Source: a virus
Taxonomy: Duplodnaviria; Heunggongvirae; Uroviricota; Caudoviricetes
Virus record (IMG/VR): IMGVR_UViG_2563366990_000007
Location: 1-5,520 of that record
Direction: 5' to 3' (one strand)
DNA length: 5,520 nt
Position numbers: made by a program. Of this stretch, positions 3,001 to 5,520 are shown piece after piece (the first letter of the stretch is position 1; every line of letters starts with the position of its first letter).

Positions 3001-5520
3001 CTTTTGCACAATCAGCTGCCATTGCATTAACAGAAACAAAAGCAAATAAAGCCGCTACAAATATCTTCTTCATATTTAACTCCTGTTATTCTCCGGATGT
3101 ATTTAAAGAGTGAGCCCTGCGATTCAGAAAAGCAGCTGCGGTATTACTTTCCCATAACGTATTGTTTATCCTTATAACTGGCCTGTCGCCAGTTATCTGA
3201 CATTCTGGTTGTATCTCTTCATTCACGGCGCGAACGGAACGCGCCCCCTGATGATGGCAATTCAGTATAACCGCCACTGTGCCCAGTATCGCTGATATAT
3301 TATTAAAGGATATTCGCCCCACTCTGACACCACCCTCTCCCCGAAACTCCGGAAGCACATTGCTGATTCTCCCCCAGTTCAGTGTGAGGTCCACTTCTTC
3401 CGGTGTCATCGTATAAACAGGAGCAGTTTCAGACAGTGCCAGACGAAATTCTCTCTGTATTTGCCTGAACCGTAAGGCTTCTGCTGTGACAGTGACAAAA
3501 CGCAGAACTGCTCTGGATGCATCTCTGGTCATGGCATTTCCACTAAACTCCATTAACGCCAGATATGATGAAACCAGTGAGTGACGACTGATTTGCATTC
3601 CGGAACGTTCCAGCGCTGCGACACGCTGCAGAGTGGTATAACTGCTGTCCGTTGTCATGGAAACAGTTGTCACACCGGGCACTGATATATGTGCAAAATC
3701 TGAAAACCTGTAGAAAGTATTTGTTGCCGTATTAACGAATCCGGCCACATATAAATTATTTTGCTCAATAATCAGACGAAGATGGTCAAAACGCGCCTGA
3801 TAGACATCAAGCCCTCGTATATCCACAGCAAAATAACTGCCCGGTGGGGTGTGGTTAATAACAGACACCGATGTGGTCCCCTGAGATATATGTTCAAGTG
3901 GGGTCGATATTTCTGTCCGTATACTATTTAACGAAGAGACATAACTTTGTTGGGTCGAAAAGTCTATCGTAAATTCCCGGGAATAGGATACCGAAGAAAA
4001 GCCCAGTAACAGGCACAGTACCCATTTTAACAATATACACTTCATATACAGGTATTCCTTTTGGCTGAAGTAATCAGCACCAGACCCGGCGCAGATATAA
4101 AAAAGGCCCGCAAAAGCGAGCCAGAAAAAATAAGTATGGCGCGTTGTACTGGATTCGAACCAGTGACCGATTGCTTAGAAGGCAATTGCTCTGTCCGGCT
4201 GAGCTAACAACGCAGTGTACAGATAATGGACCGCCATCGAGGACTCGAACCCCGCGCAACCAGCTTCGAAGGCTGGCGCTCTGTCCCGATGAGCTAATGG
4301 CGGTATGTGATGGTGGCCCTTGCTGGATTTGAACCAGCGACCTGGCGATTATGAGTCGCTCGCTCTCACCACTGAGCTAAAGGGCCGGGCGCAGGATAAT
4401 AACGGTACGTAACTAATCCTGCAATATCATCCGTTCTGACTGGCTAAATCCTGAACTTCCCTGACCGTCTGCTCAAAACGTTCAGTCTCCAGCTCAACGC
4501 CAGTTGCACGACGCCCCAGCGCCATTGCTGCTTTGACGCTACGGACATAAAAAAGCCAGCCACTGGGGGAGGCTGGCAAACTCGTAGAGCAAAATGCTGT
4601 TACGCAAACTTCGTTACAGGGTTATCCTGCAATACTTAAAATATACAATATTTAGAAAACTAATAGTGCCATATGCGATTTTTAAGATTTTGTTATTAAT
4701 TGCGGTCGCACCTTCCTTTCTGTGTACTTTCCGTATAACTTACAGGATTCTGGATACAAAAAACCCGCGCATCGGCGGGTTAAGCAGCGTGGCAATGTAA
4801 CCACTTTTGTCATGATATGATGATTTTTACGATTGTAAACTGTTTTTCTGCATCAGGGCACGATAACCTGACCATTCCCCACCCTGTCAGGTGGGGATTT
4901 GCACTAAACAACCTTCTCAGATGTAATCTGCCTGTACGCTACCAGCTTTTTATCAGTGTACTGGACAACATCTTTGATGACCAGTTTATGTACTGCTAGA
5001 ATTAGCGTCTCCATGAAAGAATAATCAGGGTTATTATCTTTTGACGGCAAAGATACCATTAACTCGTCGGCATCTTTTGCATAGAAATTTCTCCCGTAGT
5101 TGAACTTTCCGGTACAAGAAGACTTATGAATTGATGCTGTTATGAAAATAACGGCATTTCTGTCAAAGAATTCTGTATGAACAACTGCCACATGGTCATC
5201 TGCACCATACTCATAATTTCTGTATTTTGCGGAGCCAAACATATCTATCGTAATGGTATTTTCAGGGAATACAACAACATCATTACTGATAAATGCAGAA
5301 ATACCTTCATTGCCTTCACCCGCAGTAACAAAAGGCAAGGAGCCGGGTATACGATCTGCGTTTTTCAGACGCTTACCTCTTATTGCGGGGCCAAATAACT
5401 TTTTGAGGTTATAAGTGCCCCACATAAGATTATTGCTATTTAATAGCTCAATCGCGTTATATTCCTGTGGTGTAAGCTCATAGCTTATCAGTCCGCGAGT
5501 CCGCGAGTCCGCGAGTCCGC

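What the first reader, a model, noticed from the sequence alone, without database searches (positions are those of the whole stretch)
5491..5520. Perfect 8-bp tandem repeat inside the open 5' part of the upstream ORF, cut by the window edge
GTCCGCGA repeats perfectly at least 3.75 times and may continue outside the window. The unit length is not a multiple of three, so gaining or losing one unit inside a coding frame would shift it; this is the logic of slipped-strand phase variation, which is unusual for E. coli phage genes. It could instead be a non-coding repeat upstream of the true start, or an assembly or construction artefact at a contig end.
Basis: seen in the sequence. Interest (0 to 1): 0.5.

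Follow-up and report, generated by a model that had tools for sequence, protein, structure and literature searches.

The report
Slippery repeat switches prophage restriction gene
The 8-base repeat is a real, very unstable tract in the middle of the DNA-recognition gene of a restriction-modification system carried by a Shiga-toxin prophage; gaining or losing units throws that gene in or out of frame, a type of genetic switch common in Helicobacter or Neisseria but rare in E. coli.

Summary
In detail: (AGTCCGCG)n lies at 5490-5520, perfect, and is cut by the window edge. It is not an artefact. In complete E. coli genomes and other assemblies that share the flank, the tract has 4.9 to 26.9 units. 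It sits inside a coding sequence, but mid-gene rather than at the 5' end, in the linker between the two target-recognition domains of a specificity (S) subunit.

The genes annotated "HsdM/HsdS" are really a BcgI-like Type IIB restriction-modification pair (a nuclease-methyltransferase fusion, RM, plus S). They lie between Q and stx in lambdoid prophages.

Prophages with 0-1 substitution over about 6.7 kb differ by 5-17 octamer units. Only tracts with 6, 9 or 18 full units give a full-length S; all others stop right after the tract. Two further tracts vary as well: a 7-bp repeat (2.6-120.6 copies) straight after the RM start codon, and an in-frame 24-bp repeat in S. RM is under strong purifying selection, so this is a switch rather than decay.

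Closest precedents are the poly-G tract in the same linker of the H. pylori orthologue and the neuO heptamer in E. coli K1 prophage CUS-3. Verdict: a new member of a known kind.

Seen in passing: a conserved -1 frameshift signal at the RM/S junction across the whole family, which I could not find reported.

The parts
5490..5520 (-). TRD2-proximal end of the octanucleotide tract (coding strand GCGGACTC; 3.9 units visible, the tract continues past the window edge). When read in frame it encodes the cyclic octapeptide ADSRTRGL.
   Evidence: TRF finds period 8, 100% identity. The same tract has 4.9-26.9 units in loci L001-L007, L019-L032. It aligns as an insertion in the inter-TRD linker when compared with S alleles that lack it.
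4904..5489 (-). C-terminal half of the specificity (S) subunit gene: the end of the linker (LISYELTPQEY...), target-recognition domain 2 and the C-terminal conserved helix. The stop codon is at 4904-4906.
   Evidence: Open frame from 5518 to 4904. It is part of the full-length 375-429 aa 'restriction endonuclease subunit S' in L003, L005 and L007. The full protein matches Pfam Methylase_S with 2 stretches (E=1.9e-29). PADLOC 'Type II specificity subunit' PDLC03591 matches residues 202-358, which is this half (E=8e-28).
4904..5425 (-). 173-aa ORF that RefSeq annotates as a separate 'hypothetical protein' (WP_000264576.1) in genomes where the tract is out of frame. It is an annotation by-product, not an independent gene.
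   Evidence: Listed by the ORF listing. It is annotated separately in L001, L002, L004 and L006 but absorbed into full-length S in L003, L005 and L007. On its own it has no Pfam hit.
4762..4781 (-). Terminator-like hairpin (AACCCGCCGATGCGCGGGTT followed by TTTTGT) about 120 nt downstream of the S stop codon, before the tRNA genes. It possibly marks the 3' end of the cassette's transcript.
   Evidence: Consensus scan only. The number of such sites does not exceed the shuffled expectation, so this is weak evidence.

Best explanation
The repeat is a hypermutable simple-sequence tract inside the specificity (S) subunit gene of a BcgI-like Type IIB restriction-modification system. The system consists of RM, a nuclease-methyltransferase fusion, plus S. 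It is carried as cargo between the Q antiterminator and the tRNA/stx region of lambdoid (often Stx-converting) prophages of E. coli.

Mechanism: slipped-strand mispairing adds or removes 8-bp units. Only tracts with a multiple of three full units keep TRD2 in frame and give a full-length two-domain S. Every other length ends translation just after the tract, leaving TRD1 plus the central helix only. In BcgI-type enzymes S is needed for both cleavage and methylation. The tract therefore switches the system's activity, or possibly its specificity, stochastically and reversibly within a lysogen population.

Two further tracts act with it. A 7-bp tract directly after the RM start codon gates RM translation. 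An in-frame 24-bp repeat changes the length of the S central helix, which in Type I enzymes sets the spacer of the recognition sequence.

Shown here: the tract is real and coding; it is hypervariable relative to its flanks; reading frame follows copy number; the enzyme family assignment; purifying selection on RM.

Inferred: the slippage mechanism, reversibility within a culture, expression in lysogens, and the phenotypic consequence.
For: 1. Real and coding. The tract lies inside complete chromosomes with identical flanks. The frame is open through it.
2. Position. In alignments with S alleles that lack the tract, it is an insertion between '...IEELEAYL(L/I)xxGL(A/S)D' and 'Y(E/Q)LT...', which is the inter-TRD linker.
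3. Copy numbers seen: 4.9, 5.9, 6.9, 8.9, 9.9, 16.9, 17.9, 18.9, 23.9, 26.9.
4. Frame rule. Full-length S is annotated only for 6.9 and 18.9 units (L003, L005, L007). The others are split, with the predicted stops GLAD* or DKL*.
5. Hypermutability. L003 vs L006 show 0 substitutions in 6.7 kb but differ by 17 octamer and 7 heptamer units. L006 vs L007 show 1 substitution and differ by 5 octamer and 2 x 24-bp units. L001 vs L005 show 1 substitution and differ by 10 octamer units. The octamer and 24-bp differences are whole units, as are nearly all heptamer ones; L001, whose heptamer tract is interrupted, is the exception (97 bp against L005). Genomes identical to the whole window differ by one unit.
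6. Not decay. RM dN/dS is 0.05-0.06 at dS>1, and the same holds for its nuclease domain. The RM frame after its tract is intact in all 32 loci that hold it whole.
7. Persistence. The tract occurs with three TRD1 types and two TRD2 types.
8. Family. PADLOC REase_MTase_IIG matches at E=7e-234 end to end, starting just after the heptamer tract, and S scores best against 'Type II specificity subunit'. RM carries a PD...EYK nuclease motif and NPPY. The TIGR hsdM score is 35 against a cut-off of 243. No hsdR is adjacent. RM is 60% identical to H. pylori loci whose S gene carries poly-G in the same linker, and that system is described as BcgI-like and prone to phase variation (PMC3936762).
9. S is required for both activities in BcgI-type enzymes (PMC3874165).
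Against: Switching within a culture, expression and phenotype have not been measured; everything rests on comparing assemblies. Assemblies are fallible at these tracts: L004 has a 66-base poly-C run inside the heptamer tract, and some tracts may be collapsed.

Only 1 of the 7 complete genomes with this allele (OkiPb01692, L003) has both RM (frame of the -9 ATG) and S in frame. That is about what random drift of two tracts would give, so selection for the ON state in lysogens is not evident.

Some loci carry other lesions: IS1 between RM and S in L004, and a split S in the O111:H8 strains. Loss of the system is therefore tolerated.

In-frame alleles insert 16-48 extra residues (ADSRTRGL units) into the linker, and it is unknown whether S tolerates this. 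It is also unknown whether the cassette is transcribed in the lysogen or only late after induction; the promoter scan was not above chance.
Confidence: 0.75

Rival explanations
1. Neutral microsatellite in a dispensable cargo gene. The tract is an unstable repeat that arose by chance duplication in a linker. It repeatedly breaks S, but the variation has no adaptive role and the system is mostly dead weight in lysogens.
For: ON/OFF states occur at roughly the frequencies expected from random tract lengths. Only one of seven complete genomes has both genes in frame. IS1 insertion and other disruptions occur. Most S alleles in E. coli lack the octamer tract altogether.
Against: RM is under strong purifying selection and never carries lesions outside the tract in 32 loci. 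The tract stays perfectly pure at up to 27 units. It persists across three TRD1 and two TRD2 combinations. The same linker independently carries a poly-G tract in H. pylori and a heptamer tract in a Lachnospiraceae relative, which suggests recurrent selection for a switch at this position.
Confidence: 0.17
2. Specificity switch rather than on/off switch. The truncated S (TRD1 plus central helix) produced by out-of-frame tracts dimerises and directs the enzyme to a palindromic version of the TRD1 half-site. This is what happens with EcoDXXI-deltaC, EcoR124I-delta50 and the naturally truncated NgoAV.
For: The truncation point lies just after the central helix, the same architecture as the active truncated Type IC S subunits (PMC3874165). 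Truncated products keep an intact TRD1 with a Methylase_S match.
Against: According to the review, homodimeric truncated S subunits are reported only for Type IC, where the central and C-terminal helices resemble each other. Here the central helix (IEELEAAHIEELEAYL) and the C-terminal helix (LILAVHKLVIKDVVQY...) are dissimilar. Nothing is known for Type IIB S subunits.
Confidence: 0.2
3. Assembly, adapter or construction artefact at a contig end.
For: The window ends inside the tract. Many short-read contigs that carry this gene are only 2-10 kb long, and several viral contigs end inside the sister heptamer tract. That is compatible with the window edge being an assembly break.
Against: The tract with both flanks lies in the interior of at least 7 complete chromosomes from four countries and in further long contigs. 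It is in frame with a recognisable protein on both sides.
Confidence: 0.01
4. Non-coding repeat upstream of the true start of a 173-aa gene (4904-5425).
For: RefSeq annotates that ORF as a separate hypothetical protein in out-of-frame genomes.
Against: The ORF is only the last 173 residues of TRD2. It lacks the conserved start of the domain (LISYELTPQEY...) that aligns with other S alleles. It has no family match on its own. It is absorbed into full-length S wherever the tract is in frame.
Confidence: 0.03

Closest known systems
H. pylori BcgI-like Type IIB systems HP1471/HP1472 and JHP1364/JHP1365 (Hpy99XXII, TCAN6TRG), whose S genes carry a phase-variable poly-G tract (Krebes et al. 2014, PMC3936762)
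   Same: Same enzyme family: the RM protein is about 60% identical to H. pylori loci. Same two-gene layout. A slippery tract lies in the S gene, in the linker between the central helical repeat and TRD2. S lacks its own start codon after the RM stop.
   Different: H. pylori uses a homopolymer (G8-G14) about 25 residues further along the linker. E. coli uses an 8-bp unit with up to 27 copies. E. coli also has a long heptamer tract at the RM 5' end, which none of 56 relatives has, and the system rides on a lambdoid prophage. That the H. pylori loci I fetched are the very genes of the paper is inferred from species, architecture and the poly-G tract; it was not checked by accession.
neuO poly-psi tract of prophage CUS-3 in E. 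coli K1 (Deszo et al. 2005; PMC3046976)
   Same: An E. coli lambdoid-type prophage cargo gene switched by a non-triplet tandem repeat through slipped-strand mispairing. The heptanucleotide unit has 2-93 copies, starts two nucleotides after the start codon and encodes a peptide heptad. This is almost exactly the design of the sister 7-bp tract here: GACCAGC, 2.6-120.6 copies, 6 nt after the ATG, encoding DQRPATS heptads.
   Different: neuO is a capsule O-acetyltransferase, not a restriction system. The unit sequence is unrelated. The octamer tract of this finding is internal to the gene rather than 5'-terminal.
Phase-variable Type IIG enzyme Cj0031 of Campylobacter jejuni (Anjum et al. 2016, PMC4889913) and the SSR-switched Type I/III 'phasevarion' methyltransferases
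   Same: A repeat-tract frameshift switches a combined restriction-methylation enzyme, with possible genome-wide methylation differences between cells (title and abstract).
   Different: Those are chromosomal genes of host-adapted pathogens with mostly homopolymer or 2-5 nt units. Here the unit is 8 bp, the host is E. coli and the carrier is a prophage. No effect on a regulon has been shown.
Truncated or length-variant Type IC HsdS (NgoAV, EcoDXXI-deltaC, EcoR124I-delta50; EcoR124I vs EcoR124II TAEL repeats) (Loenen et al. 2014, PMC3874165)
   Same: Truncation after the central helix leaves one TRD. Changing the number of in-frame helical repeats alters the spacer of the bipartite site. This parallels the octamer-induced truncation and the 24-bp (IEELEAAH) copy variation of 2-4 units.
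   Different: The enzyme class differs (Type I with a separate HsdR and translocation). Activity of truncated or lengthened S has not been tested for Type IIB.
BcgI (archetypal Type IIB enzyme, (RM)2S)
   Same: An RM polypeptide with an N-terminal PD-(D/E)XK nuclease and a gamma-type N6-adenine methyltransferase, plus a two-TRD S subunit, with no translocase. The deposited phage record PV340552 calls the protein 'BcgI alpha chain-like'.
   Different: There was no direct sequence comparison with BcgI itself, and no solved structure was detectable by sequence. Here S appears to be made as a -1 frameshift extension of RM rather than from its own start codon.

Membership tests
Simple-sequence-repeat (contingency-locus) phase variation | Tandem repeat with a unit length that is not a multiple of three, inside a reading frame (or a promoter) | tested here: met
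   An 8-bp unit with 100% identity, inside the S frame and open in all three frames.
Simple-sequence-repeat (contingency-locus) phase variation | Tract length polymorphic among closely related strains, far in excess of point substitutions | tested here: met
   0-1 substitutions per 6.7 kb against differences of 5-17 octamer units. There is a one-unit difference among genomes identical to the whole window.
Simple-sequence-repeat (contingency-locus) phase variation | Length changes toggle between a full-length and a truncated product | tested here: met
   Full-length S occurs only with 6, 9 or 18 full units. Other lengths stop at GLAD* or DKL*.
Simple-sequence-repeat (contingency-locus) phase variation | The gene is otherwise maintained by selection (not a decaying pseudogene) | tested here: met
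   RM dN/dS is 0.05-0.06 and the RM frame is intact in 32 of 32 loci. For S itself the evidence is only qualitative: the tract is retained across TRD combinations.
Simple-sequence-repeat (contingency-locus) phase variation | High-frequency, reversible switching within a clonal population, with a phenotype | not testable with these tools
   This needs read-level or colony-level data plus methylation or restriction assays.
BcgI-like Type IIB restriction-modification system | A single RM polypeptide with an N-terminal PD-(D/E)XK nuclease and an N6-adenine methyltransferase | tested here: met
   PADLOC REase_MTase_IIG matches at E=7e-234 over residues 80-747. The protein has Pfam N6_Mtase, a PD...EYK motif and NPPY, and a sub-threshold VRR_NUC hit.
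BcgI-like Type IIB restriction-modification system | A separate specificity subunit with two target-recognition domains, adjacent to RM | tested here: met
   Methylase_S with 2 stretches. PADLOC Specificity_II at E=8e-28. The gene lies immediately downstream of RM. Caveat: S has no ATG and is probably translated as an RM-S fusion by a -1 frameshift.
BcgI-like Type IIB restriction-modification system | Homology to an experimentally characterised member | tested here: met
   59-61% identity to H. pylori loci with the described architecture. Hpy99XXII is characterised in PMC3936762. The link to those exact genes is inferred.
BcgI-like Type IIB restriction-modification system | Bipartite recognition site cut on both sides; (RM)2S stoichiometry | not testable with these tools
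   This needs biochemistry.
Type I restriction-modification system (as annotated: HsdM/HsdS) | HsdM without a nuclease domain, reaching the hsdM family threshold | tested here: not met
   TIGR00497 hsdM scores 35.3 bits against a cut-off of 242.75. A nuclease domain under purifying selection precedes the methyltransferase. The 569-aa 'HsdM' start is an artefact of the frameshifted tract.
Type I restriction-modification system (as annotated: HsdM/HsdS) | An associated HsdR translocase-nuclease | tested here: not met
   None lies within 9 kb on either side in 7 genomes. The rest of the genome was not searched.
Programmed -1 ribosomal frameshift site (dnaX-like) - side finding at the RM/S junction | In-phase X_XXY_YYZ heptamer in the overlap, a downstream ORF in the -1 frame with no start of its own, and a stimulatory structure 5-9 nt downstream | tested here: met
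   About 45 of 49 relatives qualify, mostly with G_GGA_AAA directly before the stop codon. Conservation peaks at the heptamer, with an SD-like GGAGGA upstream. A 12-bp stem shows covariation: 93.6% of cells are paired and 0/500 shuffles reach the observed score. The hairpins are stable at -17.6 to -23.3 kcal/mol. The frameshift product itself has not been demonstrated.

The most novel reading that the evidence does not exclude
The prophage carries a Type IIB restriction-modification system whose output is set by three stacked recoding or hypermutation layers.
1. A heptamer tract after the start codon gates RM translation, possibly at two levels through two start codons in different frames.
2. 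A -1 programmed ribosomal frameshift at the RM stop, conserved across the family and apparently not yet described, makes an RM-S fusion alongside free RM. One message would thus deliver the (RM)2S stoichiometry.
3. The octamer tract plus the 24-bp repeat in S then decide whether the fusion carries one or two recognition domains and how far apart they sit.

A clonal lysogen population would continuously generate cells with no restriction, one specificity or another specificity. That would affect which further Stx phages and plasmids they accept, and it would create methylome heterogeneity in STEC.
Probability: 0.3. Interest if true: 0.8.

Novelty: new member of a known kind. Interest (0 to 1): 0.6.

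Why it matters
E. coli is usually regarded as poor in repeat-driven contingency loci. The textbook E. coli examples use DNA inversion or Dam methylation, and neuO is the known prophage exception. A second, more elaborate case sits next to stx on Stx-converting prophages, which has several consequences.

1. Sister cells of one STEC clone may differ in whether, and possibly where, they restrict and methylate DNA. That bears on superinfection by other Stx phages, on plasmid uptake and on possible epigenetic heterogeneity.
2. Current annotation is wrong at this locus. It calls a Type IIB enzyme 'HsdM/HsdS', truncates the nuclease domain, and names spurious opposite-strand ORFs 'YXWGXW repeat-containing protein'.
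3. The tracts break short-read assemblies just upstream of stx and could serve as very fast VNTR markers.
4. The same linker has acquired a slippery tract independently in H. pylori (poly-G), in a Lachnospiraceae relative (heptamer) and in E. coli (octamer). This is a neat case of convergent evolution of a switch position.
5. The frameshift signal seen in passing may explain why H. pylori homologues looked 'inactive' for lack of an S start codon.

Tried and rejected
- Orphan Type I methyltransferase (HsdM+HsdS without HsdR). This was my first reading from the RefSeq names. I rejected it after the PADLOC and NCBIfam scores and the nuclease motif.
- Pfam on the window's 204-aa fragment alone: no hit. 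The domain is recognised only in the full protein or by PADLOC.
- Exact-pattern scan of metagenome contigs for flank plus two octamers: 0 hits. The viral-contig scans did give hits.
- Literature search on the bare repeat units: only chance primer matches.
- The O111:H- STEC methylome preprint concerns an unrelated chromosomal Type IIG enzyme.
- The Atack et al. survey of repeats in Type I systems mentions neither Escherichia nor these units in its main text, and its supplements are not held.
- Searches combining BcgI/Type IIB with prophage, phase variation, Shiga toxin or frameshifting found no description of this locus. Absence from this library does not prove it is unpublished or missing from REBASE.
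- PDB sequence searches with RM and S: no hits.
- Promoter and terminator scans: site counts are not above the shuffled expectation, so the expression context stays open.
- The idea that the 31 repeat bases at the window edge reflect a k=31 assembly break could not be tested. Genomes identical to the window have tracts of only 39-47 bp, so the edge may simply be arbitrary.
- Structure prediction was not run. The domain boundaries were already clear from the allele alignments.
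Full report
OBSERVATION. The window ends with ...CTTATC(AGTCCGCG)3AGTCCGC. Tandem Repeats Finder reports exactly one array in the 5,520 bases: 5490-5520, period 8, 3.9 copies, 100% identity. On the minus strand the frame starting at 5518 is open through the tract to a stop at 4904. The other two frames stop immediately after the tract. By my arithmetic, 23 consecutive periodic matches are expected about 1e-10 times in a window of this size.

WHERE THE WINDOW COMES FROM. The window is the late-regulatory and toxin region of a lambdoid Stx2b prophage, read on the minus strand. 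It carries a NanS-like esterase (394-2304), stxB (2810-3073), stxA (3086-4045), three tRNAs (4137-4386), a remnant of a DNA methyltransferase gene, and then the ORF that holds the repeat. All 5,520 bases are 100% identical to E. coli 04-00955 and to two other assemblies.

THE REPEAT IS REAL AND CONTINUES. Seven complete E. coli chromosomes from the USA, Germany, Switzerland and Japan contain the last 821 bases of the window at 99.6-100% identity. In them the tract has 4.9, 6.9, 6.9, 16.9, 16.9, 18.9 and 23.9 units. Further assemblies and viral contigs add 4.9, 5.9, 8.9, 9.9, 17.9 and 26.9. The three genomes identical to the whole window have 4.9, 4.9 and 5.9 units. The tract is therefore not an adapter or an assembly artefact. 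The window edge might still be an assembly break. The ORF is indexed mostly on 2-10 kb contigs, and several viral contigs end inside the sister heptamer tract. This cannot be decided from the data available.

WHAT GENE IT IS IN. RefSeq annotates the locus three ways. In L003, L005 and L007 there is one 'restriction endonuclease subunit S' of 375-429 aa. In L001, L002, L004 and L006 there is an N-terminal 'subunit S' fragment plus a separate 173-aa 'hypothetical protein', which corresponds to window 4904-5425. The difference follows tract length exactly. A tract length (including the partial unit) of 1 mod 3, meaning 6, 9 or 18 full units, gives full-length S. Lengths of 0 mod 3 end in ...GLAD*, and lengths of 2 mod 3 end in ...TDKL*. 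Full-length S matches Pfam Methylase_S in two stretches.

Aligning S alleles shows a modular protein: TRD1, then (IEELEAAH)n IEELEAYL, then a linker, then TRD2, then a C-terminal helix. Alleles without the repeat read ...YLIAAGLSDYQLT.... The window's allele reads ...YLLVSGLAD(SRTRGLAD)nSRTRGLISYELT.... The tract is therefore mid-gene, in the inter-domain linker, not at the 5' end. Because 8 is coprime to 3, all three frames encode the same cyclic octapeptide and none contains a stop. Out-of-frame ribosomes therefore terminate only after the tract.

THE SYSTEM IS NOT TYPE I. The upstream 'HsdM family' gene is annotated at 569, 653 or 739 aa in different genomes. Its frame is in fact open further upstream to an ATG that is followed 6 nt later by a second tract, (GACCAGC)n. 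The complete protein matches the PADLOC model 'Type IIG restriction enzyme-methyltransferase' PDLC03616 at E=7e-234, residues 80-747 against model positions 3-715 of 721. The match starts just after the heptamer-encoded stretch. The protein has a PD...EYK nuclease motif, N6_Mtase and NPPY. It scores only 35 bits against the hsdM equivalog, whose cut-off is 243. S scores best against 'Type II specificity subunit'. No hsdR lies within 9 kb. The deposited phage PhiR12_3 labels the protein 'BcgI alpha chain-like'. Relatives with 60-74% identity occur in gut Clostridia, Bacteroidales, Treponema, Campylobacter and H. pylori. Krebes et al. describe the H. pylori systems HP1471/HP1472 and JHP1364/JHP1365 as BcgI-like Type IIB. 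[quoted passage not shown] This is therefore a BcgI-like (RM)+(S) system. In such systems both subunits are needed for cleavage and for methylation (PMC3874165).

HYPERMUTABILITY. I compared about 6.7 kb of the cassette between related prophages.
- OkiPb01692 vs OkiPb01696: 0 substitutions, but 7 heptamer units and 17 octamer units differ.
- OkiPb01692 vs OkiPb01714: 1 substitution, 7 heptamer units, 2 x 24 bp, 12 octamer units.
- OkiPb01696 vs OkiPb01714: 1 substitution, 2 x 24 bp, 5 octamer units.
- 2012EL-2448 vs 2018-166: 1 substitution, 1 x 24 bp, 10 octamer units.
- The Symbioflor strains G6/7 and G8, and three O111:H8 strains (alleles without the octamer tract): 0 substitutions, with only heptamer differences.

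The octamer and 24-bp indels are whole units, as are the heptamer ones except where the tract is interrupted (L001, 97 bp against L005). The tracts thus mutate orders of magnitude faster than their flanks.

NOT DECAY. dN/dS of RM is 0.05-0.06 between alleles with dS>1, and 0.04-0.05 for the 115 codons of the nuclease domain that RefSeq leaves out. In all 32 loci that hold the gene whole, the frame after the tract is intact at 681-688 aa. The octamer tract occurs with all three TRD1 types and with a second TRD2 type that is only 45% identical, so it has survived domain shuffling. The same linker carries G8-G12 in most of the H. pylori loci fetched and (ACCAGAG)5.9 in a Lachnospiraceae relative. 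Slippery sequences have therefore arisen repeatedly at this position.

THE SISTER TRACTS. The heptamer tract is present in every E. coli locus examined, including an 82%-identical allele, at 2.6-120.6 copies. It is absent from all 56 distant relatives. Its context is AAAGGATGATTTTATGCTGCCA(GACCAGC)n. An ATG at -9 has a well-spaced AAGGA and is always conserved. A second ATG at -17 lies in another frame and is lost in two loci. The third frame has no start. Among the first 18 loci, 5 are in frame with the -9 ATG, 4 with the -17 ATG and 9 with neither. This closely mirrors neuO of prophage CUS-3, which has an AAGACTC unit at 2-93 copies starting two nucleotides after the start codon (PMC3046976). 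The 24-bp repeat encodes IEELEAAH and has 2-4 units. A 2.2-2.7-copy version occurs across the family. By analogy with the TAEL repeats of EcoR124I/II, it could alter the spacer of the recognition site; this is inference only.

MECHANISM, AND WHAT IS NOT SHOWN. The best-supported reading is a stochastic frameshift switch in S, backed by a second one in RM. It turns a prophage-borne restriction-modification system on and off within a lysogen population. Not shown are switching within a culture, expression in the lysogen, and enzymatic activity. The best promoter-like site sits at the end of Q, where P_R' is expected, but the scans are not above chance. It is also unknown whether S tolerates 16-48 extra linker residues. 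Only one of seven complete genomes (OkiPb01692) has both genes in frame, roughly what drift of two tracts would give. Some loci carry IS1 or other lesions. Assemblies are imperfect here, as the poly-C66 run in L004 shows. A neutral-microsatellite reading therefore keeps some weight. A specificity switch through truncated-S dimers is possible, but it is unsupported for this enzyme class.

SIDE FINDING. S has no ATG. It lies in the -1 frame and overlaps the end of RM. In the E. coli allele of this window the RM frame reads GA A_AAA_AAG CAG TAA, which is the dnaX-type slippery heptamer in phase. A stable hairpin follows 4 nt later. In about 45 of 49 distant relatives, S is likewise in the -1 frame and usually has no ATG for tens of codons. 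An in-phase heptamer, mostly G_GGA_AAA, directly precedes the RM stop. Conservation peaks on CTGGGAAAATAG, with an SD-like GGAGGA about 9 nt upstream. A 12-bp stem starts 5 nt downstream and shows compensatory changes: 93.6% of cells are paired against 35-47% when the partner strand is slid, and 29 cells have double-sided changes against 5.0 +/- 4.6 in shuffles (0 of 500 shuffles reach the observed value). One pair reads U-A 17, C-G 16, U-G 6 and is never broken. This is the full signature of programmed -1 ribosomal frameshifting, which would yield RM and an RM-S fusion from one message. I found no paper linking frameshifting to BcgI or Type IIB enzymes. Krebes et al. noted the missing S start codon and took it as a reason for inactivity. 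If the signal is real, the octamer tract decides what the frameshifted fusion carries.

VERDICT. The gene context is corrected to the inter-domain linker of the S subunit of a BcgI-like Type IIB system. Artefact and non-coding readings are rejected. It is a new member of a known kind, repeat-switched restriction-modification systems. It is notable for occurring in E. coli on Stx prophages, for its unusual unit lengths, and for having three variable tracts in one operon.

Noticed in passing
Outside the window: RM/S junction, L003:10340-10420 (minus strand); relatives L050-L103 around the RM stop codon; alignment A1: A conserved programmed -1 ribosomal frameshift signal joins RM to S. S is in the -1 frame with no ATG. 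An in-phase slippery heptamer sits right at the RM stop (A_AAA_AAG or G_GGA_AAG in E. coli, G_GGA_AAA in most relatives, C_CCA_AAG in H. pylori). An SD-like GGAGGA lies about 9 nt upstream, and a covarying 12-bp stem starts 5 nt downstream. It would produce RM plus an RM-S fusion. I found no report of it in the searchable literature.
   Followed up: yes
Outside the window: L003:12436-12650 (minus strand), and the equivalent position in every E. coli locus L001-L049: A heptanucleotide tract (GACCAGC)n with 2.6 to 120.6 copies starts 6 nt after the RM start codon. Two upstream ATGs lie in different frames. Across the first 18 loci the frames split 5 : 4 : 9. The tract is absent from all 56 relatives in other taxa. 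The design closely resembles neuO of prophage CUS-3.
   Followed up: yes
Outside the window: L002:9844-9910; L007:9956-10046: An in-frame 24-bp repeat encoding IEELEAAH in the S central helix varies between 2 and 4 units among near-identical prophages. A 2.2-2.7-copy version occurs across the family. It could change the spacer length of the recognition site, as the TAEL repeats do in EcoR124I/II.
   Followed up: partly
L083-L090 around 6134-6170; L104:6029-6069: Most H. pylori orthologues carry G8-G12 in the same inter-TRD linker of S. An uncultured Lachnospiraceae relative carries (ACCAGAG)5.9 there, and its contig ends at that point. This looks like convergent acquisition of slippery tracts at one position.
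   Followed up: partly
L001:12502-13182(+), L004:13279-13911(+), L010:5494-6261(+) and others; L001:10463-12172(-): There are systematic RefSeq mis-annotations. Spurious opposite-strand ORFs across the heptamer tract are named 'YXWGXW repeat-containing protein' or 'hypothetical protein'. The RM gene is called 'HsdM family methyltransferase' with a GTG start that cuts off the nuclease domain. S is given ATT or TTG starts.
   Followed up: yes
L004, coding-strand positions 5379-5444 (inside the heptamer tract of strain 2015C-3121): A run of 66 C interrupts the heptamer tract. It is almost certainly a long-read assembly or consensus error, and a warning that assembled copy numbers of the long tracts are not fully reliable.
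   Followed up: no
L004:10430-11127; L013-L015:2298-3410: Other lesions occur in the cassette. An IS1A sits between RM and S in 2015C-3121. The S gene is split into two fragments in three O111:H8 strains, which carry an allele without the octamer tract.
   Followed up: no
window 2457-2509 (+) and 2513-2722 (-): There are Rfam matches above gathering score to AsxR (anti-stx2 sRNA, 66.8 bits) and STnc100 (154 bits), in the gap between stxB and the esterase gene.
   Followed up: no
window 4137-4386 (-); about 4427-4540 (-): Three tRNA genes lie upstream of stxA: Arg-TCT, Arg-TCG, and a CAT anticodon that ARAGORN calls Met and RefSeq calls Ile. Next to them is a 114-nt remnant of a site-specific DNA methyltransferase gene. 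This suggests the RM/S cassette replaced or disrupted the methyltransferase usually found at this position in Stx phages.
   Followed up: no
L001:13355-13511, L002:12738-12894 and others (between Q and RM): A hok/gef-family toxin gene sits between Q and the RM gene. It is annotated as frameshifted in several genomes and intact in others.
   Followed up: no
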